A stretch of DNA of 57,780 nucleotides, filler included, from Jimgerdemannia flammicorona (Eukaryota): assembly GCA_003990765.1 (NCBI GenBank). It is 3 parts of 3 records of this genome, joined end to end, with 100 filler letters (N's around TTAATTAATTAA, not from the genome) between each part and the next. Parts side by side here need not be neighbours in the genome. Positions count along the whole stretch, not along the records: positions 1 to 19,199 come from RBNJ01002002.1; 2 more parts are not named here. The stretch is one strand, 5' to 3'. The notes under the pieces were generated by a model. It was given only the letters and a program-made list of their open reading frames with translations, was not told the DNA's origin and did no database searches. The stretch's first letter is position 1, and each line of letters begins with the position of its first letter. Positions 4,040-57,588 of the stretch are shown here, one piece after another. Made by a program: the position numbers and the translations under genes.

Positions 4040-5780
4040 GTATGTCACGACTGTGTGCGGCATTTGATGCAGCTGCGTGATGGAATCAAGCCACAATCTG
4101 TGCATGCTCGCTCATACCTGTTCTATTACAGGGTATAATATCGGTAGCGAGGGGCCACGCTCCCTAATTAAGTATCTGAAGTATAACATGACCTTGACTG
4201 AGCTGAATCTCGAACGTATGTCAGAACGGTGCAAAAATATTTGTACAGCCGGATGGAATCAAGCTCACGATCTGTGCGCGTTCACGCATCCCCTGTTCAC
4301 GATTGACATCGGCGGCGAGGAGGTACGCAGAATACGACCTGGACCGAGCTGAATCGCTTCTGTATGTCAGAACTGTGAGAAGTATTGTGTGTAGCTACGT
4401 GATGAAGTCAAGCTTACCACCTGTTCATTTAATTGGTTGCGAGAGGGCACCCCGACTCGCCAAGTCTCTGAAGCACTGGACCGTATTGAATCTCTCCCTC
4501 TCCTGTTAGTCAGGACTATGTGAAGTATTGCGGGCACCTGTAATACAGCTCACGATCTGTACGTGTTCGCTCATCTCCTGTTCATTTTATAGATAATGGC
4601 ATTAATAACGAAGAGGCACGCGCCCTAGCCGAATTCTTGAAGCAGAACACGACCGTGACCAAGTTTTATCTCTCTTGTATACCAAAACTATGTGAAGCAC
4701 TGTACGCAGCTGCGTGATGGAATCGAGCTCACGATCTGTGCATGTTGGCTATCGCCTGTTCATTTTAAAGAGAACAACATCGGCTACATGGGAGCCGAGA
4801 CTCTGAAGCATAATACGACTTTGACCGAGCTGAATCTCTTTGGTATGCCAAAACTGTGTGAAGCATTGTGTGCAGCTGCAAGGTAGAATCACGCTCGCAA
4901 TCTGGGCGCGTTCGCTCATCCCCTTTTAATTTGAAAGGCAGTAGCATTGGCGACGAGGGGTCGCGCGTCCTAGCGGAGTTTCTGAAGCATAATACGAGAT
5001 CAATCTCTCTGGTATGTCAGAACTATATGAAGCATTGTGTGTGTGTAGCGGCGTAGAGTCAAGATCACGATCTGTGCGTGTTCGCCATCGCCTATTCATT
5101 TAAGGGAGCGACATTGGCTACATGGAGGCACTTGCCGTAACCGAGACTCTGAAGCATAACACGACTTTTACCGAGCTGAATCTCTCTGGTATGCCATAAC
5201 TGTGTGAATCATTGCGTGTAGCTGTACAACAGAATCGTGCTCACAATCTGTACGTGTTCGCTCATCCTCTTTTCATTTGAAAGGCAATAGCATTGGCGAC
5301 GAATCTCTGGTAATTCTGAACTATATGAAGAATTGTGTGTAGCTGCGTGATGGAATCAAATTCACGAACTCATTTAAGAGAGCAACATCGCTAAAAAGGG
5401 GGCATGCGCCCTAGCCGAGTCTCTGAAGCAGAACACAACCTTAACCAAGTTGAATTTTCTTGTATACCAAAACTGTGTGAAGCATTGTGTGCAGCTGCGT
5501 GATGAAATCGAGCTCACGATCTGTGCATGTTCGCTCATCTCCTGTTCATTTTACAGGTAATAATATTGACGATGAGGGGGCACGCGCCCTAACTGAGTCT
5601 CTGAAGCAGGACACAACCTTGACAGAGCTGAATCCCCGTGGTATGCCAAAACTGTGTGAAGCATTGAGTAGCTGCGTGCTGGAATCAAGCTCATGATGTG
5701 TACATCCTAGCCAATGGTATCGGCAACGAGATGGTCGGCATCCTAACCGAATATCTTAAGGGAACAAATCACTATAGACT
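4040..5780 (+). pseudogene. Tandem array of ribonuclease-inhibitor/NLRC3-type LRR exon-intron cassettes (~10 units, several broken)
   Basis: 84-nt AG/GT-bounded exons at 4132-4215, 4593-4676, 5105-5188 and 5557-5640 encode 28-aa LRRs (e.g. NNIDDEGARALTESLKQDTTLTELNP). Other exons are 72, 74, 83 and 26 nt. The introns (gtatg...ctcacgatctgtgc.tgttcgctcatc...ag) are homologous to each other. Confidence 0.8.
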
Positions 5781-6894
5781 TGAAAATGTATTTTTTCAAC
5801 AGTTAATGATCACCTAAATGTTGAGAAAGCTACAATAAATATGACGTGGGGATTTTTCTATTATTCGAAATATTTTGTGCTCGCTATTAGATGGACTCTG
5901 GATATATCGTATTGGATGGCATGTAGTTCTCCAAATTGTTTCGAACCAGGCCTAATTTGCTTGCTTCAATTCCAATCTGTACTCGCGTGCGAAGGAGGTG
6001 CATTCTAGATGTCGTCCATTTGGAAATCTGTCGTGCCGAACATTATCAAAAGGATCCACATTTTAATGGGCACACATAAGATCGTGAAGTTAGAGAATCA
6101 CCATGGCGGCATCGTCTTCGTCGTCGCGGTCGATGACCTAGGGCGAGGATAACTCGTCTGTAACCGCGCTATTCATGTTCACAGCCTCCACAAAACTCTC
6201 ACTAACACGATACTAGTGTATCTTGGTTCTTTATTTCTTTGTTGATCTGGATCTCTCTGCGGGAATATGAACTATTTAAGGGCTAAGGTGAGAACTACTT
6301 GAACGTTGTGAGTATGTTGGCCAACAAATCGTGTATCCCATAGTTGTATAGGAACTACGTATCGTGCATGTAGTTTGCAAAGATGCGAACGCGCTCAAAT
6401 GGCACCTTCACTCGGTATGTGCATGCTATAAAGTGGAGCAAATGCGAGTAGGCGTCTGGTGAACATTCGTAAGCATAGTGTCAGCAAGCAGTCGTTGGAA
6501 GCTAGTAATGAAGGAAAACCCCCACAATAGTTTGGTCTGCTTGAATTGAAGTATTGGTTATGACGACGATTCAGTAATAAGAGTTCTCAATGTGTGTCAC
6601 ACGATTTCCTTTCATTATTGGAAAAGAACACATGAATTAATAACAGTTTACTCGCTCAGTCGACAATCTCGTTCTAAAAAGTCACTTCCGGATTAGATCT
6701 TCCGATTCGTACAGACCGCTTTTCGCCGATTGTTGTGACACTTCTTGATCCCCACCAATAGTAAATGTGTTCTGGATACAATCGATATGAACTCGTACTT
6801 CGAAGCCCTTGTAGCATAAAGACATAAAAACTCTGAATATATTGAACTTAAAGCGAAGGTAGTGTTTGCAGAGGTTGTCGTACTTTCCATATAT

Positions 6895-8362
6895 TGTCAC
6901 GTAGTGGTCGCTGAGTTCTTCAAATACGCCAGATTCTCTTCAAGGTGTATCTCTTAGACTAACTCAAGTTGTTATAAGCAAGTTCTTATTGGAGTGCCTT
7001 CCCAAGGTCTTATAGTCCTCAAACTTCTTATCTTTAACTGTCTTGTTATCTCTTAGATTGCTTGCAAGGAAGTGTGTAAGTGAACCGGATAGAACTTGAC
7101 TTTATTTCAGAGGAAATAAGAGGGGTATTTATACAAAATATAATTCAATGGTTGCTAAGATATAAAGCTAAATATAAATTCCAATAACTAAAACTACTGA
7201 TGGCATTATTTAGTACCACATCAAAATACCGGTGCTGGAACAATTTCGCGTCACCTCAGAATACCGGTGCTGGCATTATTCAGTGTTATATGAGAACTTT
7301 TAGAGCAGAAATTTCAGGATCATGGGAGCTTCATCATCATCATCATCACTGAAGGAGATGAGGTCCGCGAATTCATCATGTAGGTCGCGCGTTTCGCGTG
7401 CTTCGGGTATGTCGCGCGGGATGACGTCATCGATGACGTCATCACATTCGGCTGTGGCAGGAAAATCAGGAACAAGGTCTGGAGCTCTCCAGTCTATGAG
7501 GTTCTCCTCCACAAAATAGGGGACAAATGTGGGGTCTTGGGGGGATCTAACCCGGATGCTTGGGCCTTGGAATACTGAGATCAATCCTTGCAGGAATTGG
7601 TCTGGGTTGTCCTGAAGGATAGGGTGCCAGAAGTCTTCTACTTCTTCGCTGTTGAGGGTGATGGTGGACTGGGCTTCTGTAGCTACCCTGGCTTCTAGTG
7701 CATTGATGTGGCGGGATGACAGGTCTCTGAAGTCTGAGACTCTAACATACTCCAAGTTGGGGATCGACCATGGTGCATGCCTGAAGATCTGATGGATCTT
7801 TTTTGCTGTCCTTGCCTCATGTAGGTCTATGGGGGTGGCATCTTGTAGCTCTTGAGGGCTGGCCTGTGGGAACTCCTGGCAGAGGAGGTTTCCTATTTCA
7901 TACTCCTGCCACATTTGGAGGCATTCGGTGGCAATGGTGATCCTTGTTTCCATTTCACGACGGTAGAGGATAAAGTGATAAGGGTCTGCAGTATCCAGGT
8001 TGACGCTAGGAGTCCTTCTTGAGCGGGTCATCATGGCTCTTCTGATGTCTTGAAACATCCTTTCCTCGACTGAGATATCTTGATGATTCCTTGACCTTGA
8101 GGTTTGGCAGGCAGCAGGCATTTTGTTTGTAGTAAGTCTTTGAGCTATTTTGGGATTGGGGTTCTTGTTGGCTGCTGCTACTGCGGTTCCTTGATCCTTC
8201 TTTTATATTCTTCAGGATGCTTGTGCTGTGGTCACAATGACTCACAGTTAGTCATCGTTGCTCATCTCGCATGCCATATGATCTTCTTGTACTCTGATCT
8301 GGTGGCTTGTAAAGAAAGGCTGTCTCCTGTGCTGATGTCATCATTCTGGGGTCACCGTTACA
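6895..8362 (-). mobile_element. 1468-bp solo-LTR-like insertion containing an intact ORF
   Basis: Termini TGTCACG...CGTTACA, flanked by ATATAT on both sides (6889-6894, 8363-8368; 4- or 6-bp TSD). TATA-like gtataaatacccctc on the - strand at ~7120-7134. The first ~183 bp recur almost identically at 57406-57588. Confidence 0.8.
7300..8121 (-). CDS. LTR-embedded 273-aa protein of unknown function, apparent homolog of Gypsy ORF3 (50946-51449)
   Basis: Uninterrupted ATG-initiated ORF with acidic C-terminus. Motif QEYEIGNLL...AKKIHQIFR...IPNL..V..SDF aligns by eye to ORF3 EYFKLGQVL...AKRIHKLF...LAHL..V..SDF. Confidence 0.75.
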   Translation of the reverse strand: MPAACQTSRSRNHQDISVEERMFQDIRRAMMTRSRRTPSVNLDTADPYHFILYRREMETRITIATECLQMWQEYEIGNLLCQEFPQASPQELQDATPIDLHEARTAKKIHQIFRHAPWSIPNLEYVRVSDFRDLSSRHINALEARVATEAQSTITLNSEEVEDFWHPILQDNPDQFLQGLISVFQGPSIRVRSPQDPTFVPYFVEENLIDWRAPDLVPDFPATAECDDVIDDVIPRDIPEARETRDLHDEFADLISFSDDDDDEAPMILKFLL

Positions 8363-11300
8363 ATATATACATGATCCGAAATGAAATCCGGATGTATGTC
8401 GTGGATAGAGCCGACGCGCAAGATACGTGAGAAATTGGTCACAGGCATGCTTATTCAATGTTGGACACTGACCGTATATACATATTCCAGCCCTCTGAAC
8501 CAAGGTACAGATACCAATGCTTCCTGCACAAGCAGTTAAGGGACGACGAATCTTTTGCATTTATTGTCTTCTGCCTGCACTTTATGTGCCGAATTATATT
8601 TGATGAAGTCTATCTAATGTCTCAATGAAAAATAAAAAATAAATATAAATATAAAAAAGACTCCGCCGCCAGAAATTCGGAAGGCAAAAGCAGCATGCAC
8701 CAAAAATAAATCATCGCCGACCCTTAGGATGACGACCATACGCAGGCTCCGCGTGAACTGAGTTACGATATTGAGTTGCGTCGAGAAGACATTCCTTTTA
8801 TATTTGGCACATTACAGACGATTGCTGATGTCTTTGTACATGGTGCTACACGATTTTGGCGCTCAGTACCATAATATCCGTGACCAGATTATTGAGGTGA
8901 GTGGAGCGCCGGAGTGGCGAACAGTGGACATTGACTAATCCTGTCATTTGACCTCAAGGCGCCGCCTTTCTCCACGAACAAATCGTCAACCGCGATCTCA
9001 ACCCAAACATCATCAATTTTGAGCTTGTCTATCATCGGCAGTTGGGGCACTAAAAAGGTGCCATGCTTGCAAAGTGAAGGATGCAACAAAATTTATCTTG
9101 GACGTTCATGGCCTATAATGTTGATATTAACCAAGAAGTTGTTATCTAACTGGGCTCCACACCTTCCATATCTTTATCACAGAAAATATTGTACCTTTGC
9201 GAGGTCGAGTATCTCCCTCATGAACCACAGATTAGCCTTAAACGGATTGAGTGGCATGCCACGTGACCCAAGCGTAAAAACGGATGAATCTCGTCGGGTA
9301 ATTCAAGCAGTTCACCTCTGAGGCAAAAAGGGAATGAATGGATTGAAACGGGAGGAGTGTACGGGCGACACAGGCATCAGGGAAAATAAGCGACATCAAC
9401 AAAGATGGCGATCGAGGAGCTTGCGCAAGCGCCAGAGGAGAATGGATGTGATGTCTCGCCATATGTGAATAATCTGGATAGATGTAAAAATTTTCTTGAC
9501 TCGGCTTATCATGGGATATTACCAATCTAATACTGATGATGCATTTGGGCAGTATCCCGCGTCTAGACTGTATCACCCATTTGATTATTTATTTTGCCAC
9601 TTCCCCTTCCTCTTTACAGTTTTTCTCGTTTCCCTTTTTTATTTCCACCGGTTGCTCTCTGCCTTGAATGAAAGCGCCTGGGTTGTAATTTTTGTTGTGG
9701 TTGTGTATTTTTTAACCTACCGCGAAGCGCTAGATAATATTATGGCGCTAGATAACTATGGAATGATTGAACGTGTCAGAAAACCAAGAGATGGCATGCG
9801 TTTGATTAATGATTCCAAATCGGAGGTAATCAACGATAGTAACGAAGTGCGAAAATATTAGAAAGGATTGGATAAGGAGATGTGTGCAGACATTTGGGAA
9901 GCGGCGTGGGACTGGCTTTGATTGACCATCTCGGATGTATGTAGTCATCTGAGAGACATAAACTCGCACTAGTGGTCCGCTAGCTCATTCAGCTCCCGAC
10001 GAAAAGCGACTAGTGGAAGCAAGGCCGTATGCAAGTGTTAGGGGCGTGCGGCCAATTTCGACGGGATGATATCCTCTTAATTAGGCATCCGTCCTCATGA
10101 CGGATCTAATCTAATATATACGTGTCCAGCGGAGTTCTATTCAAGCAGACGCGGTCTGTCGCGCAACAATCTGACTTGCATGGCCATCGGAAAAATTTCT
10201 GCAGGGAGAGGAGACCTACAATAAATTATTAATCCTCACGACGACATCCCGTGCGGCTACGTCCTGAAAGAGTCTTTCAAAAATAAAGTTCAATATTTGC
10301 GGGGTCGGGACCTCAAAATTTCGCGATTTCTGGAGTTTGCCCTCTGTGAAACGACGAGAATCTACAGTGAAAAAAACGATTACTTCTGGAATAAAAAACA
10401 CACTGATGACTGATAAGCTCGTTTCACATTGTCGTTGCCACACGCGCCACACGATCACACGATCAAGAGCTTATGATATATCTACAGGTCACATAACATC
10501 AAGATTTCATGACCAACATCTTGCCTGCACATTACTGGCCATCTCTGGTATTTTCGCCAGCTCTTCCTTTAACAAAACCACATGTTCTCACCAGCCATAT
10601 CTTTGTCTCTATTATTGTCAATCTCAATTACTAGTAGCTCTAGATTGTTGGTTATTTCCTTAACGCTATTGTATTTGATAAAATATTTATTTATCATATT
10701 TTTACATTTATAAATTATTTTTAAAGTAAAAATATTATAACCATATTATTTAGTAGCTTATAGATGTCTGTATTATTAATAAGTATATCAATTATAAAAC
10801 TGTGAAGAATGCATGTGGCTTTTAGTCTAGAAATTATGGCAGAAGCCGAAGGGTTACTAAATTTTGTGATTTTGGCAAGGCTACATAGGAAGCACATATC
10901 ACCCTTATGCATTCCGTATGCAGGTGTTTGTGGAGAACGGTTAGTTTTCGGGTTTCCTCGTTGCCATAAATACTGCAGGTCGTTTTGTGGGTGCGACTAG
11001 GAGTTCTGTCTGATACGTCATGCGGACCGATTAGTATTTTTATTTTATTTTTTTCCTGGAGTTAGTTGAGATTGTACAATCTTTTCGAATAGTGGACGTT
11101 TCTCCGCGGATGGCGTTGTTACCAACATGATATGCTCGACCGACAACGGAACGGAATGACTCAAGTGGGGAATGTGTAATGTGGCTGGTGTACGAATGTG
11201 ACAGTGGAATCCCGAAACAATCGTCTGAGGATATTATTGAAATCATCGATTCACGTTTAATACCCTTTGCCAGCAACTTTCTTTGCGGGCGTCCAATCCC

Positions 11301-11366
11301 GTTCAGAACGGTTACCGGTGAGTGAATAAGTTATACAGATAATAGCAATAGCTTTATTTTTTTTAT

Positions 11367-13242: not shown

Positions 13243-13277
<35 letters not shown>

Positions 13278-17321: not shown

Positions 17322-17394
<73 letters not shown>

Positions 17395-18437: not shown

Positions 18438-18471
<34 letters not shown>

Positions 18472-19333: not shown

Positions 19334-19945
19334 GAGTAAAGAAGGCTTCAATAAGACCTTCTTCATCCTGACTTGCTGGGTGTAGTGTAAGGAGTTCAGT
19401 GAATAGGGTTTTGCCTATTTGCTGATTTAACTGGAGTATTTCTTTCTTTGAATGAAGTTTGTCTCACTTATTACAGGTATGGAGGTCAAATTGTCCTTGT
19501 ACATCAGGTTCAATTCTCTCCAGATTGTCAGATGGTTCAGGATAAATTCCAGTTCAGAGGTTGGGCTTTATACCAACTTGTAGGAATTTACAGAGGGTTT
19601 TGTAGTGGGGTGAGGAAGCATCTTGAAGTGGAATTAGATTATAAACTGCTGCTACCAAGTTGTAAGAGAGTTGCTTTTTAGGGTAATTGTTACATAGTTC
19701 TGGAAGGGTTTTCTGGAAGTTCTGGATGTTCTGGAAGACTGTTTTCTTATGGTCAAGATCAATTCCATATGGAGTACATCCTCTATGCTTATTGATTTCA
19801 AGATTGGGTTGATGTCTCAACCAAAGTCCTTTTTCAGACTAGTTCTGGATGCTCAGGATTTTCTGTATTTCAGGAAGTTCAAGAAACTAAGACCAGCTTA
19901 GTTGAATTGGCGTATCACTGCAGACAATACCCAATTAGGAAATTT

Positions 19946-21764
19946 CGTGATGGGGTTAGGAGTGAGACCTAATGGGGAGTGGATTTACTTAAGAGTGGTT
20001 TGTGGGTTATTAAATAGGTTTATTCGCTATTCATGATATTATTATACTAGGAGTAGTTGTGTAAAGAGATATTATGGAGAAGTGCTCAGGAGTTGTGTTT
20101 GGAGTGTTCAAGTCTTTCAAGTCTGAGATTCTGAGGTCTGGGAGAGGGGGTATTTATACTAGTGAGAGGCTATCTGGACTATACTAGATATAGATATAGT
20201 ACTTAGTACCTTGCTGAGTTGGAATGTAGTCATGTAGTACAAGAGTGATCTGATATGTCAAGAGATCGTCTGACTGCTGAGTCAGTTCACAGTCATGTCA
20301 TACAAGGCTAATCTAACTATACTATGACTGCTAAGCTATTTATAGGTTTAGACACTATCTGAGTAATCTTTGATGATATCACCATCAATGACATCATCTC
20401 TAATAAAGTAGTTGTCTAAGAAGAGTGGTTTATGGATTACTTCTCCTTGTTTACTAAGATAATAATACATTGAAACTTCATCACCATCCTATAGGATGGC
20501 ATCATCTGTCTCATATGCTGGATAAGGTATTGGGGGTGAAAAAGTGGTACATCATCTTCACTTTCATCAGATTCGCTGTCTGTATACCTTCTGTAGATTA
20601 CAGCACTATGAGTCACTGGGTTGTAGTATGCTGGTGACTATGGTTTATGTCACTTGTACTCAGGTGATGGAGTGGTTGGTTTGATCTTGAGGGTTGTCTG
20701 GAGGTACAGGTTGTATTCTCCAGTCTCTTCATTATAGTTGAAGTAATTGAGAGTGAATGCAGATTGGTATTTATGCTACTAATCATTGTCCCAATAGGTC
20801 TCATAGGTGGTTATGAACTGTTGTAAGTTCATTGGTAAGGTTGGCAGTGTGATTAGTATTGGCAGGGATCCTTGGCTTGGGGTCAAGTCAGTGTCAGAGA
20901 GATCATTGTCTTCTGCTTTATCTTCATTGAACTGGATTATATTGTAGATATCCTTCATAGCATATCCAACTTGGAGCATTTGCAGAATGTGGTCATTGGG
21001 GTGTGGGAAGGTTCTGTCTGTAGTCTGGATATACTTGAAGTACTTGTGGTTGAGTTTTTATATTATATCATCGATTTGGCCATAAGACAGAGTAGCAACC
21101 ATTTCACTGGTAGTAACTTGGAGGTAGGGAATAAAGGTGCTATACTCATAGAAGAGTTCTTGGTGTTTGCAGGTGATGAGTTTCTGATGTTGGGACATCT
21201 GGGTAATATCTGTATCATAATGGTGTTCAACCATTTCTTCCAGGAGGCAGCTGATCTAGTAGTAGCTTGAGATTTGTCTGATCTAGTGGGCCTTGTTAAG
21301 TATGTTTAGGGCATTCCATCAGGCTTCCACAAAGTAAAGGGATGCTAGGCTATGGATATTTATAAGGGGTAGAGGGGGTGTGGCTCAGTTGACAATGATA
21401 TTCCAAATATCAGCATAGATGTAGTTGTAGATCTCAGTAGTCATGTTTGTATATGTTCAGAAGTTGTGGTTATTGTTTGTTTTGGTTCTCTGTTTGATGA
21501 ATCTTGGTACTCAGTATATATGCATTTGGTCTTGATTGGTAAGATTCTATTTGTGTAAATCTTGTGTTCTATGACTTCATATTGACTCAGCTTTGTATAC
21601 TGTGACTTCGGTTTGACTCAGCTTTGTGTACTATGACTTCAGTTTGACTCAGCTTCATGATCAAGCAGGTGATTTCCAGATTTGTTCAGAGGTCACATGT
21701 GATTTCAGTGGCTTGTTCAGAGGGTGACATGTGATTTCAGTGGCTTGGAGGTTGTGTACTTATA
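19946..21764 (-). mobile_element. Long (~1.8 kb) LTR-like unit with a decayed internal ORF (~20800-21447)
   Basis: 20898-21764 is homologous to 35171-36013, which ends in ...gcttACA. Same TATA context (gggggtatttatac, ~20146-20159) and same layout as 6895-8362. Tandem ~31-bp repeats at 21570-21750. Left boundary uncertain; a PBS-like tgggtattgtctgcagtg and a decayed ORF follow on - (19300-19935). Confidence 0.6.
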
Positions 21765-35137: not shown

Positions 35138-35168
<31 letters not shown>

Positions 35169-35170
35169 AA
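34917..35170 (+). mobile_element. LINE 3' end with poly(A) tail
   Basis: Matches the reverse complement of 1-232; aataaa at ~35114; ~A25 tail at ~35146-35170. Confidence 0.85.
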
Positions 35171-36013
35171 GAGGGATTATTATCTTCTGCTTTGTCTTCA
35201 TCAAATCAGATTATATCATAGACATCCTTCATAGTATAACCAACTTGAGGCATTTGCAGGATATAGTCATCAGGGTGTAGGAAGGTTCTGTCTGTGGTCT
35301 GAATATACTTGAGATACTTGTGATTGAGTTCTTATATCATATCATCTATTTGGTCATAGGATAGAGTAGCAATCATTTCAGTAGTAGTAACTCAGAGGCA
35401 GGAAATAATAGTGCTATATTTATAGAAGAGTTCTTGATGTTTGCAGGCAATGAGTTTCTGGTATTGAGACATCTGGATAATGTCTGTATTGTGATAGTAT
35501 TTGATCATATCTTCTAGAAGATGGCTGATCTGGTAGTAGCTTGAGATTTGTCCGATTCAGTGGGCTTCACTAAGTATGTTCAGGGTATTCCATTGAGCTT
35601 CTACAAAGTAGAGAGGTATTAAGCTATGGATATTCATGAGGGGCAGAGAGAGTGTGGCTCAGTTGCAATGACATTCTAAATATCAGTATAGATGTAGTTG
35701 TAGATCTCAGTAGTCATGTTTGTATATATTCAGGAGTTGTAGTTGTGTATTTAGTTTGTTTTGGTTCTCTGTTTTGATGCATTTTGGTACTTAGTATATA
35801 TGTATTTAGTCCTAATTGGTAAGATTCTATTTATGTAAATCTTATATTCTATAACTTCATATTGACTCAGCTTTGTGTGCTGTGACTTCAGTTTGACTTA
35901 GCTTCATGATCTTGCAGGTTATTTCCAGATTTGTTCAGAGGTCACATGTGATTTCAGTGGCTTGTTCTGAGGGTGATATATGATTTCAGTGGCTTGGAGA
36001 TTGTGTGCTTACA
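35171..36013 (-). mobile_element. Partial second copy of the long ORF-bearing LTR-like unit
   Basis: Collinear with 20898-21764; begins TGTAAGCA on the - strand; truncated at the LINE poly(A). Confidence 0.75.
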
Positions 36014-45273: not shown

Positions 45274-45675
45274 TGTGACATATAGTATGAAATCGAAATA
45301 GGGAACAGACACTTGATCGCACCCAGTCCCAAAGTAGTATAGCCACATAGTTAACAGTCCTCGATTTCACAACTTGCTAAATATTTTGCAAAGTGTTAAA
45401 TGACTCATAACTTAGCCATGTAACCCAGTAACTATCTCATAGCTAGCAAAACTTATATAAATAACCCAGTATCTTCGAGTGAATAAACCAGAGATCGAAA
45501 TAGTTCAAAAAGAAAAGAAGACAGCAAAGGAACTAGTAAGCCTACAGGCAGATACACTTCGAACTCACCCACCCTCCCCTGCAATTTCAAGAGACTCTGC
45601 GAGAGTCAGAACAGTCAAGTTTTCAAGATACTGAAATCCGACGTACTTTCAAGAGTAAGTGTCCGCTATGTTACA
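45274..45675 (+). repeat. 5' LTR
   Basis: Direct repeat of 51445-51846; contains TATA (tataaataa) and aataaa. Confidence 0.95.
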
Positions 45676-45777
45676 ACTTAGTGCCCATTGGCTGGTGATT
45701 CATGATGAATCCCTCACTTTCAAGCTGAACAACGAACAACTGCCACTATCCAAACCGAGCCCCAAAACCCAGACAAG

Positions 45778-48700
45778 ATGGATATGAGACCACCAGTATT
45801 CCACAGATATACCTCAGATGAATCAATCATCACCTTCATTGATGATTTTGAGCAATATGCCGCCATAAGGACCCTGACAGCAGCACAGCAAGTAGCCCTC
45901 ATGCCCTTTAGCCTACAAGGCCCTGCCAGAGCAGCATTCACAGCTGCAACCTATACAGGAAATGATGCCGATGCTATACTGACAGCACAGAAGACCTGGC
46001 TCTGAAATACATATTACATAGATGAGATCAAGCAAGCCCTGAAGGACCAGCTCAATACAACATGCCAAGGAATGAGTGAGGATCCAAACACATTCTATAC
46101 TAGAATTCGATATCAGATAATTCTTGCAGATTATGCTGCTGTTATCTGAGATCAAGTAGCTAAAGCAACCTTCATGAAAGGAGTCCACCCAGAAATAGCC
46201 ATGGCTATCTGCTCATCACCAGTAATTCTGGATCTGCCACAGAAGGTCACCTATGCTCAGCAATACTGGATAGCCAGACATCCACAGGACCACACAATGG
46301 AAAGGGTCACAGGAGTCAGAATCAAGGCACCCAAGGCAACCAGCGTGATCCCTACCACAATGATCAATTGAAACACACCTCAGCCAAAAGCTACAGAGCA
46401 GCAGAAGAACAGTGACCCTATGGAGGAACTCGCCAAAAGGTTTGCTGAAATGACTGCCCATCTGGGAGATGTGGTAAAGGAAATTCGAGGAAGAGACCGC
46501 CGCCCTGTCCAGAAGTTCACCGCCACCTCAGACAAGAAGAAAGGCACCTGCTATACTTGCAGAGAAGAAGGCCACTACTCCTATGAATGCATGAGCGAAA
46601 CCAAGTGCAAGGCTCAACCAAGTAATGCCACATGAAACAAGAAGCAGGCCAATACAATTACCTTCGAGGAGATTTGAGATTCTGATGAAGAAGAATGGGA
46701 GGCCTATCCTGCTCAGACCACCAAAAAGGATGCTCGCAAAGAACCCTACAAGAGACCACCAGGAAGACCTAAGAAGAACCCAGTGGAAAAGCAGATGGAA
46801 ACTGCCACAGAAAGTAAAGTTGAAGGGATGGATCAAGATACAGAGCTGGAGCAAGCAGTTCAAGATATCATCCGAGAAACCACTCCAGCCAGTGAAGGAG
46901 AAAAAGAAAAGAAGCTTCGCAAGATTAAGACCTTCAAGTATGATATCTTCAAGGACCTCAGCCAACAAAAGGTCAATGCAACCTTTGGTCAGCTCGCAGA
47001 AATCCCAACATTCAGACAGCAAATAAGGTTTGGACTTGCTGAAACAACTAAGGAACAAGGATGGAAGATAACCGAGGCCAATAATGCTCAAGAGGACTCA
47101 GGAGAAGAAAGTGAGGACAATCGCAAAACCTCTGCATATGCAACATGCCAAATCGAAGATAGAATCTTTGAAGCCATCATTGATACGGGAGCAGGAGGAT
47201 GTCTCCTCAGCAAGAAGGCAGCAGACCGCCTAGGTTGGAACGTGGAAGAAGCAACTAAGCTGGTGTTCGTCACAGCCGATGGCACAAGAGCCCCACCTCT
47301 GGGAAAGATCCAAGATGTTCCCATCAAGATTGGAAGAGCAACCATCCCAGTAGATGTAATCGTAACCAATGCCACCAACTATGACATCCTCATCAGCAAT
47401 CAATGGCTTCATAAAGCCAAGGCAGTAATCGATCTCAATGCCCAGAAGATGCAGATCACCTACCGGGGACAGAAGATATGAATTCCCATCAATGTCAACA
47501 AAGGAGTCCTGCCCGATATGGAGGAAGAAGAGAGTGAGCAAGAGGAAGCTTATATGGTAACTACTCCAAAGAAGAAGAAAGTCGGATGGATGAGTGAAGA
47601 GGAATGGTGCAAGAAGATGGCAGAAGGCTATGCACCACAAGGAGTCTGCCCTCATGGGATCAAGATGTACTGCATGGAGCATGTTAATGATCGCTACCAA
47701 TGCACCATCGGAATCAGAAAGATCCACCAGGAAAGAAGGCAGAAAGCTCTCGAAGAACAGATCAGGGAAGAAGAGAAGGAGGAAGATGATGAACCACCAG
47801 CCCTCCTGGAGGACAGTGATGATGAAGAAGAAATCAAGGTCAAGATTCGAAAGATCCACCCTGATACAGTCTTGCCAGAATACAAGTCAGAAAATGCAGC
47901 CGGAATGGACATTGCTACAGTAGAAGAGACCATACTGGAACCCCAGACAACCACCCTACTTGCAACCGGATTGGAGATGACTATCCCAAAGGATCATGTC
48001 AGGATTCTCAAGACAAGAAGCAGCCTGGCCAGAAGCGAAATTACAATTGAAGGAGGAGTCATCGATTCAGACTACATTGGAGAAATTCTACTCATTGCTA
48101 GGAATCACAATCCTACAATCCCATTTCTAGTCAAGAAGAAGGACCAATTGGCGCAAATGTTGATCTTTCCAATCCTACAACCAAAGATCATGGAAGTCAA
48201 GAAGCTGGAGGAAACAAGAAGAGGAAAGAAAGGATTTGGATCCACAGGAAGAGGAGTATTCACCAACACCAAGATCACCAAACTCGAGCACAAGAAGGAG
48301 GAAAACACAAGCAAGCACAGCTACACCATTGGAAATGAATTTCCACTCAAGAAAGAACTCAAGAAAATACTCCACGAATTCGAGGACGTCCTTGCTACAG
48401 ATTTCAAGGATATTAAAGGAAAGACCCCACACTACTATCATGAAGTAGATACTGGAGATACTGAACCAATTTATCAGAAAGCAAGACCTGTCCCGCCAGC
48501 CTACCAAGAATGGCTCAGAGAAGAAATCAAGCAGATGGAAGAAGCCGGCATCATCAAAGAAGCCAGCAGCCCCTGGTCCTCACCTGTTGTACTGGCCCCA
48601 AAAAAAGGAAGCAAACCTGGAGAATTTGCCCCAAGACTCTGTGTCGACTACAGAAAACTCAACATGGATACCAAGAAGGATCGCCAACCACTGCCCCTCA

Positions 48701-49770
48701 TCAATGACATCCTCATAACACTGGGAGATGAAGCACAGTACTACAGCATCTTGGACTTATACTCAGGATTCCACCAAATCGGACTCACAGAAGTGGCAAG
48801 TGAAAAGTCAGCTTTCATCACTCCAGACAGAACCTATGTCTACCTACAAATGCCATTTGGAATGTGTAATGCACCAGCAAGCTTCCAGCGAATGATGAAC
48901 AAAATCTTCTGCTATGATATGGGAAGATGGATGATGGTCTATATCGATGATGTAATCATCTACAGCAAGATACCTGAGGAACATCTGCAGCACATACAGC
49001 AGATAATGGAGAAACTAAGACAACATGGCCTTTATATCAAACCCAAGAAGTGCAAGTTTGCAGAAATCGAAATCTCGTATCTCGGCCATATCATCAATCG
49101 AGATGGAACACACATGGACCCCCTCAAAATACAAGCAGTAGCAGCATACCCAAGGCCCACTACTGTCACAGAAGCCCAAGCCTTCATGGGACTTGCCTCC
49201 TACTATTGCAGATTCATTAGAGGATTCTCCAACATCGCAGGCCCAATCTAAGAACTCAACAAGAAGGATACTAAGTTCCAGTGGACTGGCAAACAACAAA
49301 AAGCATTTGATGAACTCAAGGTCAGACTGACCCAGGCACCCATCCTCAGAAGACCTGACTGGACTCAAGAATTCATCCTACAGACTGATGCAAGCACACA
49401 AGGACTAGGAGCAGTCCTAGCTCAAAAGAAAGATAAAGTGGAATATGTCATTGCATACCTCAGCCACGGAACCTGAGGAGCTGAAAAAGAATACGAATCC
49501 TACAAGTTAGAATGCCTCGCAGTCATCTGGGCCATAGAAAAGTTCCACTACTACTTGGCTGGAAGACACTTCACCATCCAAACAGACCACTCAGCTCTCA
49601 CCTGGCTACTGATAACGGGACAACTCAAAGGAATCTATGCCAGATAGATAATGAAGTTGCAAGCTTATGACGTAACCATTGTACATCGCTCTGGAAGAAC
49701 CAATGCCAATGCAGATGCCCTCTCATGGACACCCCGAAGGACCCCACCCCCACAAAATCACCATGAATAA
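45778..49770 (+). pseudogene. gag-PR-dUTPase-RT-RNaseH single reading frame with nonsense mutations
   Basis: All ORF pieces share one frame. CYTCREEGHYSYEC knuckle; IIDTGA protease; AAGMDI, RSSLA, GVIDSDYIGEI, RGKKGFGSTG dUTPase; LCVDYRKLN, MPFGMCNAPASFQ, VYIDD RT; TDAS, TDH, NADALS RNase H. Confidence 0.95.
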
Positions 49771-50956
49771 GGAGCTCTACTACAGAACTATCACATACCT
49801 GGGACAGCAAAAGATGCCCCAACATCTGGAAGAATGGACACAAACAATTATCAACAGAACATGGAAACAATTCGAAACCGATAGAGAAATACTGAAGAAA
49901 GGAAAACTACTAGTCATACCGGAACACAAGAAGGAGCAAGCAATGAAATCAGTATATGAACTTGGCCATCTAGGAGGAATGAATACATGCGACAAGGCAA
50001 GAAGAACAATATGGTGGCCAGGGATGGAGGAAGATATTAGACAATTCATCAAGACCTGTGACAAATGCCAGAAATAGAAACAAGATCAACAAAATCAAGC
50101 CCCAGAATCAGCACACATAGAACCAGTACCATTCGCCCACATTGTGATGGATGTAATTGGCCCTCTACCCTTGACTTTGACTGGCAACTGATATATCATC
50201 ATCATTGTAGACCTTTTTACAAAATGGATAGAAGTGGGATCCCTTATGGAAGCCAATGCACAGTCGATCACCGATTTCTTCTACAAGGAAATCATCTGCT
50301 GGTTCAAGACTCCAACACAAGTAACTACAGATAGAGGAACTGAATTCATGAACCAGTTCTTCGAAGTTCTCTATAAGAAGTACAAGATCCAGCATATTCA
50401 GACTACAGCATATCACCCTCAAGGAAACGGACAAGTAGAAAGGACCAACAAAACCCTTAAGAACGTTATTGCCTAGATCTGTGATAACTATGAGAACTGG
50501 GATCACTACCTGCCCATAGCATTATCTGCTCTCCAGGATATCCAATCACAAAGTACCCACTTTACCCCTCGAGAAATGCTATTCGAAGAAGAATGTTCTC
50601 AGGGAACCTTGTTATCCAATGGAGATGCCATATGGAAATAGGTGGACATGGAAATACGGAGACTACACCAAATCAGGAAGAAGGCTGAGGATTACATAAT
50701 GAAGACACAGACACTACAATGGAGGAATGTGGAGAAAACTCACAAACCTTTGGAGATTATCAAGATAGGAGACAAAGTCCTGGTGTATTGGAATATGGTT
50801 GAAGCTTCATGGTCACAAAAACTGGAGCCCAAGTGGGAAGGACCTTACCTTGTGCAAGATATAAAAGGAACCACCTTTTGGCTATGAAAACCCTCAAGCA
50901 CCATAATCCCCACCACTATTCATCGAAACTGACTCAAGAAATATCATGGCCAGTAA
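49763..50956 (+). pseudogene. Integrase in its own reading frame
   Basis: GHLG...WWPGM...CDKCQ zinc-binding region; MDVIGPL, TDRGTEF, AYHPQGNGQVERTN core; KLEPKWEGPY (GPY/F) motif. Confidence 0.92.
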
Positions 50957-51449
50957 CAAAAGTACCGTGATGGCACTCAAGATCACTAGTGCTGCCCAAA
51001 GAGCCATTGAGAGACAATGGTGCACCACTGAGCCTCCGACCATAGAGGAGTCTTATGACAGTATCCAAAGTATCATGCAGACTCATCTCTCTCGGATCTC
51101 ACACTTCAAGGCCTATCAGCATCGGAATGAATTCTAAGAGTACTTCAAACTTGGCCAAGTACTCAACCAAGACCCAGAAATGACCAAAGAAAATTGGATT
51201 GCAGAATGTCAGCTCTCCTATTCCCAGATCACCATTGCTAAGAGAATCCACAAGCTATTCTGAGAGGATGAATCAGCACTAGCCCACCTGTGAGGAGTGA
51301 CTCCCTCAGACTTTGACCAAGTCAGATGACACCATTGGGAAACAGTGATACAACAAATTGCACAATACAAGACCATACAGACCATTGAAGCTTGGGAGTT
51401 TGAATAGATGCTTTAGGGACGAGATCATCTATTCAGGAGGAAGATGTGA
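50946..51449 (+). pseudogene. Accessory ORF3 in the env position, unknown function
   Basis: ATG at 50946; the frame continues through TAA/TGA/TAG stops consistent with C->T changes up to the 3' LTR; aligns by eye to 7300-8121. Confidence 0.7.
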
Positions 51450-51846
51450 TGTATGGTATGAAATCAAAATAGGGAATAGACACTTGATCGCACCCAGTCC
51501 CAAAGTAGTATAGCCACATAGTTAACAGTCCTCGATTTCGCAACTTGCTAAATATTTCACAAAGTGTTAAATGACTCATAACTTAGCTACGTAGCCCAGT
51601 AACTATCTCATAGCTAGCAAAACTTGTATAAATAACCCAGTATCTTCGAGTGAATAAACCAGAGATCAAAATAGTTCAAAAAGAAAAGAAGACAGCAAAG
51701 GAACTAGTAAGCCTGCGGGCAGATACACTTTGAACTCACCCACCCTCTCCTGCAATTTCAAGAGACTCTGCGAGAGTCAGAACAGTCAAGTTTTCAAGAT
51801 ACAGAAATCTGATGTACTTTCAAGAGTAAGCATCCACTACATTACA
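51445..51846 (+). repeat. 3' LTR
   Basis: Direct repeat of the 5' LTR, followed by TSD atag. Confidence 0.95.
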
Positions 51847-55940: not shown

Positions 55941-57405
55941 ACTTGTTCTTTATATATCTTTGTCTGTATGCCAAAATCTTAAACACAGTTCATAAAGACA
56001 ATAGTAAGATTTTTACCTAAATGAGATCCTGATAGCTTGACAAAATTAATCAATATATAGTTGAGTTATTAATTTTGACATATATTGGGTGATATCTATA
56101 TATTAATAGTGAAGAATATTTGATCAGATATATTTTATTTCTAAATAAATAAATTAAAATAAGATTAATTTAAAGTTATTCAAATTTGAAATATTTAAAT
56201 TCATATTTAATATTAAAATATTAAATCTTATCTATAGTATAATTTTGACAGCATCACATTTTCATTAAAAGACCAGTCTAATTTCATTTCATATAGTTCC
56301 AGTAGAAGAAATAGTAATATCTAATTTCAGAAGGCAAAAAAGATCTTTTAGTTCTGAATTCTCAATAACTATAAAAGGCTGGCTATTATGGATAATCCAG
56401 TAAACAAGTTTGTCTTGAAATAACTTTACAGAGAATCTTGGCTATTTAGAGAATTATTAAGTAGTAATGAATTAATAATAAGAAGAAAAAAAAAAGTAGA
56501 CAAGTTATATAAAAACCATACTTTTGAAAAAAATAACTCTATTACTTCTATTTGATAACTCTTATGAAATTTGTCCACAAATCTGTTATTGAGTCACCAA
56601 TAGGTTTATATGATATTTTACAATAGTTATATTTAATTTAGATATCTTTATTTTTCTTATACTTCTTTGTAAACTATTTCCAAATATCAGATTGCTCTTG
56701 TACTTTTCTTTTTCTTTCTTAGATGAGATTATACTTATTGAAGCTAGACTTATTGAAGCTAGACTTGTTGAAGCTATATCTAATACTGAGACTATTGTTA
56801 TAGTATTCTCCACAGAGAGTATAAAAGATACTTCTGATATAATTACTTTAAGAGAATATATATATATATATTGTAAGTTATATTATATATATTTGGAATT
56901 ATAATATTCAGTTTTGAATTTTGAATTTGATTCAAATTGGATTGTAACTAGATTTAATTCAAATTGAATTCCAAATTGAATTCAAAATTTGAATCAAATT
57001 TCAAATTTAATTTACTTCAAATTATGACTTGATTCAATTTGATTTAACTTAAATTGAATTAGCCCTCAATTTAATTTGTTCTAAGTACAATATATATCTA
57101 TAAAGCTACTGAAAATTTCTACAGAAATTCTTATAGAAATTTTTATAGAATTTCTGACTAGTAGGCATAGTTATCTAAAATAGTTTAACTATATATAGAT
57201 ATATTCAGTATACCATATTTAGTTATAGTCTCAAATATATATAATTATTCTCTATACTAAATATATTGAAATCTCAGCTCTGCTTTCTCTAAATATATAT
57301 AAGAATAATATAGTATTCTTATTACAAAACCTCAAATCTGACTTATTAATAATCTTATGTCTGATCAACTTGGAATATAAGCACAATACTTCTACTAGTA
57401 TATAT

Positions 57406-57588
57406 TGTCACGTAGTGGTCGCTGAGTCCTTCAAATACGCCAGATTCTCTTCAAGGTGTATCTCTTAGACTAACTCAAGTTGTTATAAGCAAGTTCTTAT
57501 TGGAGTGCCTTCCCAAGGTCTTATAGTCCTCAAACTTCTTATCTTTAACTATCTTGTTATCTCTTAGATTGCTTGCAAGGAAGTGTGT
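57406..57588 (-). mobile_element. Second copy of the end of the 6895-8362 LTR-like element, interrupted at 57589
   Basis: ~183 bp with about two mismatches to 6895-7077; also preceded by atatat. Confidence 0.9.

What the first reader, a model, noticed from the sequence alone, without database searches (positions are those of the whole stretch)
7300..8121. An uncharacterised accessory protein shared by three LTR families, located inside the LTR in two of them
Seen by manual alignment: the 7300-8121 ORF (QEYEIGNLL..ARTAKKIHQIFR..IPNLEYVRVSDFRDLS), Gypsy ORF3 (EYFKLGQVL..ITIAKRIHKLF*..LAHL*GVTPSDFDQV) and the decayed ORFs at ~20800-21447/35171-35717 (SYY*ISCLL..LITCKHQELFY..IPYLQVTTSEMVATLS) share one motif. 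In the Gypsy element it lies just before the 3' LTR. In the others it sits upstream of the TATA box within 1.5-1.8-kb TG..CA units, i.e. in U3, comparable in position to MMTV sag or HIV nef. It has no obvious signal peptide or TM helix, so it is not env-like. Inference: a trans-activator or anti-silencing factor that survives in solo LTRs.
Basis: partly seen in the sequence, partly recalled or inferred. Interest (0 to 1): 0.8.

Follow-up and report, generated by a model that had tools for sequence, protein, structure and literature searches.

The report
Protein gene inside a fungal LTR
A 1.5-kb long terminal repeat of a fungal Gypsy-type retrotransposon carries an intact, selectively conserved protein gene in its upstream (U3) part. 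The gene is a distant relative of the extra 3' gene of a neighbouring Gypsy element, and this layout is otherwise known mainly from a few retroviruses.

Summary
The 273-codon ORF (7300-8121, minus strand) is real and intact. It lies inside a 1468-bp TG..CA unit (6895-8362) that behaves as a high-copy LTR. In three public runs only this unit is covered, and contig overhangs at both ends match the primer-binding site and polypurine tract of the window's Gypsy element.

The ORF sits upstream of the LTR's TATA box and only AATAAA, so it is in U3. It has its own TATAAAAG about 80 nt before the ATG.

Homology to "Gypsy ORF3" (50946-51404) is confirmed. The ORF-family profile hits ORF3 at E=2e-5 window-wide, and profile-profile comparison gives E=5.9e-6, with clean controls. 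The third family (about 20350-21447 and 35170-35717) is not significant (E 2-4), but it shares the layout and an exact 13-nt TATA motif.

Of 27 listed variants among copies, 19 fall at third codon positions (p=9e-5), which indicates purifying selection.

The shared domain folds as a confident all-helical model with no known relative. Function is therefore inferred only: an element-encoded trans-acting accessory factor with a basic N-terminus, a helical domain and an acidic tail.

Verdict: a new variant of a known kind (accessory ORFs of LTR elements), analogous in position to MMTV sag.

The parts
6895..8362 (-). Solo LTR, 1468 bp, ends TG..CA, ATATAT on both sides. Proposed layout: U3 is about 8362 to 7078, and R/U5 is about 7077 to 6895.
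   Evidence: Sequence. In runs X1, X4 and X11 coverage in this region is confined to the unit, with none in the adjoining flanks, and there are loose ends at 6892-6894 and 8362-8374. The recurring overhangs equal the PBS and PPT of the window's Gypsy element.
7300..8121 (-). Intact ORF of 273 codons plus stop: the LTR-borne accessory gene. Basic N-terminus, helical domain at about residues 14-160, conserved segment 160-215, acidic tail 216-273.
   Evidence: It has 10 relatives at 27-95% identity, none with a Pfam hit. Of 27 listed variants, 19 are at codon position 3.
8200..8210 (-). GAATATAAAAG, a TATA-like motif about 80 nt upstream of the ATG. Candidate promoter of the ORF itself.
   Evidence: The same motif lies 58 nt upstream of the ATG in metagenome locus L001, and GATATAAAAGG lies 78 nt upstream of the ORF3 ATG at 50858.
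7122..7134 (-). GTATAAATACCCC, the main LTR TATA box, 166 nt downstream of the ORF stop.
   Evidence: A 16-nt match extending it by a few flanking bases (window 7135-7120) sits at the equivalent place in L001. An exact copy is at 20147-20159, and copies with 1-2 mismatches are in the Gypsy LTRs.
7101..7106 (-). The only AATAAA of the unit, between the TATA box and the start of the shared R/U5 module. Likely poly(A) signal for RNAs that read through U3.
   Evidence: motif list. The poly(A) role is inferred.
6895..7077 (-). R/U5 module, 183 nt, 99% identical to 57406-57588 where the upstream sequence differs.
   Evidence: In X1, five contigs leave the unit at 7078 into other sequence.
57400..57588 (-). 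Second copy of the R/U5 module, with ATATAT beyond its end. The sequence upstream of it (57589-57780) is unrelated and lacks a TATA box.
45274..51846 (+). Degenerate Ty3/Gypsy element. 402-bp LTRs at 45274-45675 and 51445-51846. Protease, dUTPase, RT and integrase lie between 46678 and 50473.
50946..51407 (+). Gypsy ORF3, 153 codons. It is broken by four in-frame stops (51135 TAA; 51261, 51291 and 51327 TGA). The normal stop is at 51405.
   Evidence: Nine homologues at 66-83% identity; three of them (two in the alignment, one further cluster member) are the full 153 aa without stops. Homology to the LTR ORF family.
51435..51444 (+). Polypurine tract AGGAGGAAGA, directly before the 3' LTR.
45676..45691 (+). 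Primer-binding site region: ACT spacer, then TAGTGCCCATTGG. This is TGG.. with one G-to-A change relative to the overhang seen in X1.
19661..21764 (-). Third-family LTR-like unit, copy A (ends tentative). 5' end TATAAG (TGTAAG in copy B). Decayed ORF at about 21447 to 20348. TATA motif at 20147-20159. Possible CA end followed by ACT-TGGTAGCAGCAG at 19646-19666.
   Evidence: The HMM hits are not significant.
35170..36013 (-). Third-family copy B. 5' end TGTAAGC at 36013. Truncated at 35170 by a poly(A)-tailed short repeat.

Best explanation
What it is. The 6895-8362 unit is a solo LTR, in minus orientation, of a Ty3/Gypsy lineage. That lineage is related to the Gypsy element at 45274-51846.

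Its long U3 contains a complete small gene:
- a TATAAAAG motif about 80 nt before the ATG;
- a 273-codon ORF;
- then, 166 nt after the stop, the LTR's own TATA box and its only AATAAA.

The protein is a paralogue of 'ORF3', the 153-codon sense ORF that sits between integrase and the polypurine tract in the neighbouring Gypsy element. The same accessory gene therefore occupies the 3'-most coding position of the element RNA in both lineages. In one lineage the U3 boundary (the polypurine tract) lies upstream of the gene, so the gene is duplicated with the LTR and survives in solo LTRs.

Shown here:
- the LTR nature of the unit;
- the homology to ORF3;
- purifying selection on the ORF;
- coverage of the unit in a run that contains spliced mRNA.

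Inferred only:
- The gene is transcribed from its own promoter, or from a spliced or read-through element RNA, and is polyadenylated at the LTR signal.
- The product has a basic N-terminus, a helical domain of no known fold and an acidic tail rich in hydrophobic residues. I take it to act in trans for the element, most likely as a regulator of element expression or as an adaptor to a host factor.
- R starts near 7077.
For: LTR status.
- TG..CA ends.
- In X1 (soil), X4 and X11 the unit is covered while the adjoining flanks (6000-6667 and 8672-9005) have zero depth. 1766, 177 and 48 contigs were laid on the whole 10-kb stretch, and all six X1 bins with depth lie within 6668-8671.
- The recurring overhang beyond the U5 end is ACT + TGGTGCCCATTG in minus orientation (4 contigs). 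The recurring overhang before the U3 end is ..TATTCAGGAGGAAGA (3 contigs).
- These equal the PBS and the 15 nt before the 3' LTR of the window's Gypsy element.
- The last 405 nt of the unit are collinear with the 402-bp Gypsy LTR. The TATA box is at about 170-190 in each. The terminal ..CCACTAC.T.ACA segment lies at the very end of both, although that alignment alone is no better than shuffles (z 2.6, score 26 against a shuffle maximum of 28).

Gene layout conserved in a diverged relative. L001 (62% aa identity) has TATAAAAG, an intact 323-codon ORF, a 177-nt spacer, and the same 16-nt TATA motif.

Homology.
- HMM, E=2e-5.
- hhalign, E=5.9e-6, with reversed and shuffled controls at E>=0.012.
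- The reciprocal best non-self hit of the ORF3 HMM is the LTR ORF, E=0.2.
- MAFFT puts both families in the same register.
- An AlphaFold model on the merged alignment reaches pLDDT 85, pTM 0.79.

Selection. 19 of 27 listed variants are at codon position 3; 18 are synonymous and 9 are not; binomial p=9e-5. ORFs are open in relatives down to 27% identity.

RNA. Run X11 holds the neighbouring P450 gene with three GT..AG introns removed, has no depth over most of the surrounding intergenic DNA, and holds contigs covering the unit including the ORF.

Protein. No TM segment. The N-terminal 60 residues have pI 10. The last 58 residues contain 19 D/E.
Against: - No full-length element with two 1.47-kb LTRs around gag-pol was seen. 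The host genome is not held, and the single metagenome locus is only 1345 nt.
- The flanking ATATAT is low-complexity, and it also precedes the second R/U5 copy. It is weak evidence for a target-site duplication.
- Transcription start, poly(A) site and strand were not mapped, because contigs cannot show them.
- The variant table is partial: 40 rows were shown and 145 were not.
- The second R/U5 copy at 57400-57588 has no TATA box upstream. The reading 'same R/U5 with other U3 variants' is therefore not secure for that copy.
- There is no functional evidence of any kind. No Pfam, PDB-sequence, Foldseek, VIA-align, BFVD or Atlas match was found.
- The family is very narrow: 5 representatives among 1.84 billion proteins.
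Confidence: 0.6

Rival explanations
1. The ORF is a passenger relic. A stretch that once held ORF3 became part of the LTR through a shift of the plus-strand priming site. It stays open only because the copies are young, and the protein does nothing.
For: The window's own Gypsy ORF3 and the third-family copies are decayed. No function or fold match was found. The family is narrow.
Against: Variants show a third-position bias: 19 of 27, p=9e-5. ORFs are intact in relatives down to 27% identity, with the same motifs conserved. The layout is conserved in L001, which is 70.7% identical at the DNA level inside the ORF while its flanks are unalignable apart from the TATA motifs.
Confidence: 0.1
2. 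The unit is not an LTR. It is a repeated host gene, or a non-autonomous element that captured a host gene and merely shares a short end module with LTRs.
For: Only a solo copy lies in the window. All database relatives come from short contigs and are unnamed or called 'hypothetical protein'. No paired copy was seen.
Against: The ends are exact TG..CA and recur in other genomes. The overhangs match a Gypsy PBS and PPT. The TATA and AATAAA layout and the U5 end are collinear with the Gypsy LTR. The homologue sits inside a Gypsy element.
Confidence: 0.08
3. The structural reading is the same, but the function differs. The protein is an integration-targeting or chromatin/silencing adaptor (a stand-in for the chromodomain that many fungal Gypsy integrases carry), rather than a transcriptional activator.
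For: No chromodomain hit was found among the Gypsy pol ORFs scanned, 134 ORFs of at least 88 aa. The conserved short motifs in the disordered acidic tail (DLIsF....LNFLL) look like docking motifs.
Against: No chromodomain or other reader-domain match in the protein. The pol of the window copy is degenerate, so the absence of a chromodomain hit is weak evidence. Nothing separates this reading from the activator reading.
Confidence: 0.15

Closest known systems
MMTV sag (superantigen ORF lying wholly in the U3 of a long LTR of about 1.3 kb). Recalled from general knowledge, not from a call.
   Same: A sense ORF of about 270-320 codons entirely inside U3 of an unusually long LTR, upstream of the LTR TATA box. 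It is therefore present in both LTRs and in solo LTRs.
   Different: Sag is a type II membrane glycoprotein of a vertebrate retrovirus. This protein has no hydrophobic segment and no detectable sequence or fold relative. The host is a fungus and the element a Gypsy retrotransposon.
Foamy-virus bel/bet region with its internal promoter, and lentiviral nef overlapping U3. Recalled, not from a call.
   Same: 3'-terminal accessory genes that run into U3. In foamy viruses a separate promoter upstream of the accessory genes drives them, as the TATAAAAG upstream of this ORF and of ORF3 may do.
   Different: No sequence or fold similarity was found: BFVD search, no match at E<=0.001. The promoter role of the TATAAAAG motif is untested here.
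Additional ORFs (aORFs) between pol and the 3' LTR of plant LTR retrotransposons; 'add. ORF' of unknown function in fungal Gypsy elements
   Same: Gypsy ORF3 here is a sense aORF between integrase and the 3' LTR, and it is conserved among copies. This fits the class described in PMC7264820 (passages read). The figure legend of PMC2864245 lists 'add. ORF' for fungal Gypsy elements and dUTPase-bearing Gypsy elements in Postia, Phanerochaete and Tuber (passages read).
   Different: Those aORFs are described in the internal region. In the passages I read none lies inside the LTR. I did not see the supplementary tables of PMC2864245, which list the structures of about 150 fungal families and could hold a similar case.
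brtn of Boty (Botrytis cinerea Gypsy element)
   Same: An extra gene of unknown function in a fungal Gypsy element, between pol and the 3' LTR. Mentioned in PMC7264820 and PMC8365987 (passages read). The original Virology 2011 paper was not read.
   Different: brtn is antisense to gag-pol. The ORFs here are sense. No sequence comparison was possible because I had no brtn sequence.
crapaud LTR subfamilies of Podospora (PMC10787394, passages read)
   Same: One conserved 3' half of the LTR (TATA box onward) combined with diverged or recombinant U3 halves. Compare the R/U5 module 6895-7077, which is shared with other upstream sequences.
   Different: The crapaud U3 is under 200 bp and non-coding. 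Here U3 is about 1.3 kb and holds a gene.

Membership tests
LTR of a Ty3/Gypsy retrotransposon | Terminal TG..CA and short inverted ends | tested here: met
   TGTAAC...GTGACA at 8362 and 6895. The contig ends in other runs stop at these bases.
LTR of a Ty3/Gypsy retrotransposon | Target-site duplication of 4-6 bp | tested here: inconclusive
   ATATAT on both sides. It is low-complexity and is also present beside the second R/U5 copy.
LTR of a Ty3/Gypsy retrotransposon | U5 end abuts a tRNA primer-binding site, and U3 start abuts a polypurine tract, in full-length copies | tested here: met
   Recurring overhangs in X1: 4 contigs at 6894 and 3 contigs at 8362. They equal the PBS (one base different) and the 15 nt before the 3' LTR of the window's Gypsy element. 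This is indirect evidence, from short contigs of a soil metagenome.
LTR of a Ty3/Gypsy retrotransposon | Two copies flank gag-pol | not testable with these tools
   Only a solo copy is in the window. No host genome is held. The one related metagenome locus is 1345 nt.
LTR of a Ty3/Gypsy retrotransposon | Promoter (TATA) and poly(A) signal within the repeat | tested here: met
   TATA at 7122-7134 and AATAAA at 7101-7106. Their activity was not tested.
Sense additional ORF (aORF) of LTR retrotransposons | ORF beyond gag-pol, in sense, downstream of integrase, conserved among copies | tested here: met
   ORF3 at 50946-51404 follows the integrase region (Pfam domains mapped to 50473). It has 9 homologues at 66-83% identity. 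The LTR ORF is homologous to it and is under purifying selection.
Retroviral or errantiviral env-like ORF3 | Signal peptide and/or transmembrane anchor | tested here: not met
   Maximum Kyte-Doolittle score over 19 residues is 0.49. The model is a soluble helical domain. No env Pfam hit.
MMTV Sag | Type II membrane glycoprotein; sequence family | tested here: not met
   No hydrophobic segment. No Pfam family of any kind matched. Only the position in U3 is alike.
Boty brtn-type antisense aORF | Antisense orientation relative to gag-pol | tested here: not met
   ORF3 is on the same strand as pol. The LTR ORF is on the same strand as the LTR TATA and AATAAA.
Any curated protein family or known fold | Significant profile or fold match | tested here: inconclusive
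   Pfam: none at E<=1 for the ORF; only sub-threshold hits in 3 of 18 members. PDB sequences: none, or E=0.06. Foldseek PDB best E=1.0. VIA-align best Z=4.6. BFVD best E=0.83. Atlas best hit is an unnamed cluster at 0.91.
Same protein family in the third LTR-like repeat (20896-21762 / 35170-36011) | Significant similarity to the ORF family profile | tested here: inconclusive
   E 2-4, the level of the reversed control. The de-RIP composite gives E=0.29. Supportive only: the same HMM segment, weak collinear hits, and an exact 13-nt TATA motif about 190 nt after the putative stop.

The most novel reading that the evidence does not exclude
The long LTR is a self-contained, mobile gene cassette: promoter, ORF and poly(A) signal all lie inside U3. 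Every LTR, including the solo LTRs left after the element is deleted, would keep producing an element-encoded trans-acting factor, such as an activator of LTR transcription or a blocker of host silencing. This would be a U3-encoded protein in an LTR retrotransposon outside the retroviruses; I found none described in my searches. It would have arisen from an internal ORF3 by an upstream shift of the polypurine tract.
Probability: 0.3. Interest if true: 0.8.

Novelty: new variant of a known kind. Interest (0 to 1): 0.6.

Why it matters
Accessory genes of LTR retrotransposons are poorly understood, and in fungi they are almost undescribed. This case offers three things:
- a conserved accessory protein domain with no known fold, shared by two Gypsy lineages;
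- a natural comparison of the same gene placed either inside the LTR or just outside it;
- solo LTRs that retain a complete, selectively maintained gene.

If the protein acts in trans, then solo LTRs, usually treated as inert scars or mere promoters, would be a dispersed source of a transposon factor. That would change how the TE load of such fungi is read. It would also give a tractable fungal parallel to MMTV sag, lentiviral nef and foamy-virus bel.

Tried and rejected
- Whole-genome access: none is held for this window.
- Longer or fused forms of the ORF: none found (weak evidence). The representative search with the first alignment found only 5 proteins.
- Metagenome contig scan with A2: one short locus only.
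- Sequencing runs: no RNA holder listed. X24 raw reads of 'organism A' did not cover the stretch (4 reads laid), so no copy-number estimate from raw reads was possible.
- Function by similarity, all without a usable match:
  - Pfam on the ORF, on 18 family members and on 14 members singly. The only hits were sub-threshold: HTH_Tnp_Mu_2 at E 0.03-0.11 in two ORF3 proteins, outside the shared domain; NpmA; ATG5_HBR.
  - PDB sequence profiles.
  - ESM Atlas.
  - Foldseek against PDB and BFVD.
  - VIA-align wide, best Z 4.6; the Mu transposase DNA-binding subdomain appears only at Z 2.9-3.0, which is noise level for helical models.
- The full-length AlphaFold model was poor (pLDDT 53), so only the domain model was used.
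- Third family: direct HMM, ORF3 HMM and the de-RIP composite all stayed non-significant.
- Flanks of the third family scanned for gag-pol: none found. A LINE (endonuclease + RT, + strand) lies between the two copies.
- Origin of the 240 nt upstream of the ORF from the integrase 3' end: tblastx found nothing.
- The idea that the 62-nt skip 7193-7256 in X11 is an intron was rejected. Its ends are not GT..AG on the ORF strand and it lies between direct repeats, so it is more likely an indel variant.
- tRNA genes to test the PBS: none in the window.
- Earlier notes of this scan: nothing found.
- Literature. No paper in the held library has the phrase 'ORF in the LTR' together with 'LTR retrotransposon'. 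The searches gave no fungal case of a U3-encoded protein among the listed titles, abstracts and passages that I read. This is not proof that none is in print.
Full report
**The region.** The window is a transposon-rich stretch of a fungal-type genome. It holds a few host genes: a UbiA prenyltransferase at 11370-12254 and a P450 at 13724-15393. AT-rich blocks fill the rest. Copies of repeats differ mostly by C-to-T and G-to-A changes. No whole genome is held for it.

**The ORF.** It runs from 8121 to 7300 on the minus strand: ATG to TAA, 273 codons, intact. It has no Pfam match.

**The unit around it is an LTR.** In minus orientation the 1468-bp stretch from 8362 to 6895 begins TGTAAC and ends GTGACA, with ATATAT on both sides.

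I laid four public runs on window 6000-16000.
- The three contig-based runs cover the unit while the adjoining flanks have no depth.
- The soil metagenome X1 had depth in six bins only, all within 6668-8671, from 1766 short contigs.
- X4 laid 177 contigs and X11 laid 48 on the whole stretch.
- The neighbouring bins 6000-6667 and 8672-9005 were empty in all of them.
- Loose ends sit at 6892-6894 and at 8362-8374, which are the TG and CA ends.
- Two overhangs recur. Beyond the U5 end, four X1 contigs continue, in minus orientation, with ACT followed by TGGTGCCCATTG. Before the U3 end, three contigs carry ..TATTCAGGAGGAAGA.

The Gypsy element in the same window has the same two signals:
- ACT then TAGTGCCCATTGG right after its 5' LTR (one G-to-A difference from the overhang);
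- TATTCAGGAGGAAGA right before its 3' LTR.

The unit is therefore the LTR of elements that use the same primer-binding site and polypurine tract as that Gypsy family. A full-length element with two such LTRs was not seen.

**Anatomy of the LTR.**

| Feature | Position (minus strand) |
|---|---|
| GAATATAAAAG | 8210-8200 |
| ATG | 8121 |
| Stop | 7300 |
| GTATAAATACCCC | 7134-7122 |
| AATAAA (the only one in the unit) | 7106-7101 |
| 183-nt end module | 7077-6895 |

- The end module is 99% identical to 57588-57406, where the upstream sequence is unrelated.
- In X1, five contigs also leave the unit at 7078.
- I read 7077-6895 as R/U5 and everything upstream as U3. The break falls where a transcription start (TATA plus about 50 nt) and a poly(A) site (AATAAA plus about 25 nt) would be expected. 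This is inference.
- Variable or recombinant U3 on a conserved 3' half is described for the fungal element crapaud (PMC10787394, passages read).
- The copy at 57400 has no TATA box upstream, so its nature is open.

**The same layout in a diverged relative.** The one metagenome locus found with the family alignment is L001, 1345 nt. It carries, in order:
- TATAAAAG;
- 58 nt later, an intact 323-codon ORF (62% aa identity, 70.7% nt identity within the ORF);
- a 177-nt spacer;
- a 16-nt stretch identical to the window's TATA region.

Its flanks are otherwise unalignable. The promoter core of L001 also matches the Gypsy LTR (TATAAATA.CCC, about 17 nt, GTGAATAAACC; z=6.3 against shuffles).

The last 405 nt of the unit are collinear with the 402-bp Gypsy LTR. 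The TATA box is at about 170-190 in each. The ..CCACTAC.T.ACA end aligns terminus to terminus, though that alignment scores no better than shuffles (z 2.6). This fits, but does not prove, an origin of the long LTR as 'ORF module plus an ordinary LTR', for example through an upstream shift of plus-strand priming.

**The protein family.** Word-based and exhaustive searches found only ten relatives, at 27-95% identity. All come from short metagenome-type contigs and are unnamed or called 'hypothetical protein'. None was longer or fused.

**The Gypsy element and ORF3.**
- The element spans 45274-51846, with 402-bp LTRs, and encodes protease, dUTPase, RT and integrase.
- After the integrase region comes a 153-codon frame at 50946-51404. 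In this copy it is broken by four in-frame stops (TAA at 51135; TGA at 51261, 51291 and 51327). It ends 27 nt before the polypurine tract.
- Read with X at the stops, it finds nine homologues at 66-83% identity. P0013 and P0018 in the alignment, and the cluster member P0033, are 153 aa without stops, so ORF3 is a real, discrete gene.
- GATATAAAAGG lies 78 nt upstream of its ATG. That parallels the motif upstream of the LTR ORF and of L001.

**Is the similarity real?**
- Pairwise it is not significant: tblastn E=1.2, though it is the top non-self hit.
- The HMM of the eleven LTR-ORF proteins, searched against all six frames of the window with stops as X, hits ORF3 with 19 bits, E=2e-5, over HMM positions 50-129. 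The best score on reversed sequences is 1.6 bits.
- hhalign of the two family alignments gives probability 85%, E=5.9e-6, 114 columns. Reversed ORF3 columns give E=0.016. Thirty column shuffles give at best E=0.012 and probability 3.6%.
- The ORF3 HMM returns the LTR ORF as its best non-self hit, E=0.2. MAFFT aligns the families in the same register.

**The third family.** The copies at 20896-21762 and 35170-36011 are 82% identical and differ mainly by transitions.
That is the level of the reversed control.
- A two-copy de-RIP composite made inside a script raised the score to 5.4 bits (E=0.29). The opposite composite lowered it to 0.8 bits. The direction is right, but the result is not significant.
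- Weak hits are collinear along copy A.
- Independent of the protein, copy A has the exact 13-nt TATA motif of the unit. It is found exactly only at these two places in the window, about 190 nt after a putative stop at 20348.
- Other LTR-like features: a TGTAAG-type 5' end (TGTAAGC in copy B) and a possible CA end followed by ACT-TGG.. at 19646-19666.
- No gag-pol lies next to either copy. A LINE and other repeats separate them.
- Verdict for this member: plausible, not shown.

**Selection and expression.**
- Of the 40 best-supported differences listed by read laying (145 more were not shown), 27 fall in the ORF. Of these, 19 are at codon position 3, and 18 are synonymous against 9 non-synonymous (binomial p=9e-5).
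- Together with open frames in relatives down to 27% identity, this argues for purifying selection on the protein.
- Run X11 is labelled only as a guess at RNA. However, it contains the neighbouring P450 with three GT..AG introns removed and has no depth over most of the surrounding intergenic DNA. It also holds contigs over the unit, including 350-404-nt pieces within the ORF at about 90% identity.
- That is consistent with transcription of copies of this LTR. Contigs cannot give strand, ends or level, and the run search listed no RNA holder.

**The protein.**
- There is no hydrophobic segment (maximum KD19 0.49). The first 60 residues are basic (pI 10). The last 58 hold 19 acidic residues, with conserved short hydrophobic motifs.
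- The full-length model was poor (pLDDT 53).
- Residues 14-161, modelled on the merged alignment of both families, give a confident all-helical domain (pLDDT 85, pTM 0.79, seven helices including one of 37 residues).
- Nothing similar was found: Foldseek on PDB best E=1.0, BFVD best E=0.83, VIA-align on 48,161 chains best Z=4.6, and no PDB-sequence or Atlas lead.

**How it most likely works.**
- Shown: an accessory gene of a Gypsy lineage, under selection, placed at the 3' end of the element RNA. In one lineage it lies inside U3.
- Inferred: it is expressed either from the conserved TATAAAAG upstream of it or from a subgenomic or read-through RNA, and it ends at the LTR's AATAAA. Its product acts in trans for the element.
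- The charge layout (basic N-terminus, helical domain, acidic-hydrophobic tail) is what one sees in transcriptional activators and adaptor proteins. I therefore rank 'regulator of element expression or host-factor adaptor' first. No test here bears on this.

**Comparison with what is known.**
- Sense additional ORFs between pol and the 3' LTR are known in plants, and an antisense one (brtn) is known in Botrytis Boty (PMC7264820, PMC8365987; passages read).
- 'Add. ORFs' of unknown function, and dUTPase between protease and RT, are noted for fungal Gypsy elements (PMC2864245; passages read; supplements not seen).
- An ORF wholly in U3 is, to my recollection, the situation of MMTV sag. Overlap with U3 is that of nef and of the foamy-virus bel region, the latter with an internal promoter.
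- My literature searches turned up no fungal retrotransposon with a protein gene in U3. They cover only the held library.
- I file this as a new variant of a known kind.

Noticed in passing
window 26772-34916: Two copies of about 4 kb, 92% identical, lie head to head (arms 26778-30769 and 30923-34914). Each is bounded by direct repeats of about 500 bp. They contain long overlapping ORFs (up to 696 aa) that give only a weak RVT_1 hit (E=0.002). The strand composition is strongly skewed (AT skew up to 0.5). This looks like an unusual retroelement, possibly DIRS-like or otherwise non-canonical.
   Followed up: no
window ~22700-26770 (+): A LINE-like element with an endonuclease/exonuclease/phosphatase remnant and RVT_1 (E=3e-20 when read through stops). 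It has a strong GC skew (0.4-0.5) and lies between the two third-family repeats.
   Followed up: partly
window 57589-57780: Next to the second R/U5 copy the sequence turns GC-rich. On the + strand it opens an ATG-led frame rich in glycine that runs off the window. There is no TATA box on the LTR side. It may be another U3 variant, a nested insertion or a host gene; this is unresolved.
   Followed up: partly
window 11370-12254 (-) and 13724-15697 (+): A UbiA-family prenyltransferase and a cytochrome P450 lie side by side. The P450 is confirmed as spliced mRNA (introns 14172-14277, 14846-14957 and 15391-15482) in run X11. This may be part of a secondary-metabolite cluster embedded in repeats.
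   Followed up: partly
window 1172-2157 (-), 38242-38479 (-): Further degenerate pieces of the same Gypsy family. There is a 68%-identical copy of the LTR end plus leader/gag region at the window start, and an LTR fragment at 38242-38479.
   Followed up: no
window 1-233, 34915-35170, 38593-38724: A short repeat of about 230 bp, 85-91% identical between copies, ends in a long A-run at 35146-35170. It appears to have truncated third-family copy B and is SINE-like. Assembly gaps (runs of N) lie at 19200-19299 and 38491-38590, next to homopolymer runs.
   Followed up: no
window 4030-5700, 17270-19150, 53270-53760: Three blocks of tandem or nested direct repeats, with periods of roughly 166-346 bp, about 12 bp to about 370 bp, and 29-61 bp. 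Their origin is unknown.
   Followed up: no
window ~37060-37720 (-): Remnant of a predicted AAA-ATPase-like gene (PF09820, E=1.6e-13 when read through stops) in a heavily AT-shifted stretch.
   Followed up: no
window 7193-7256: One abundant X11 contig lacks these 62 nt, which lie between two copies of a short direct repeat (..AATAATGCCA..) downstream of the ORF stop. This is probably a length variant among LTR copies rather than an intron.
   Followed up: partly
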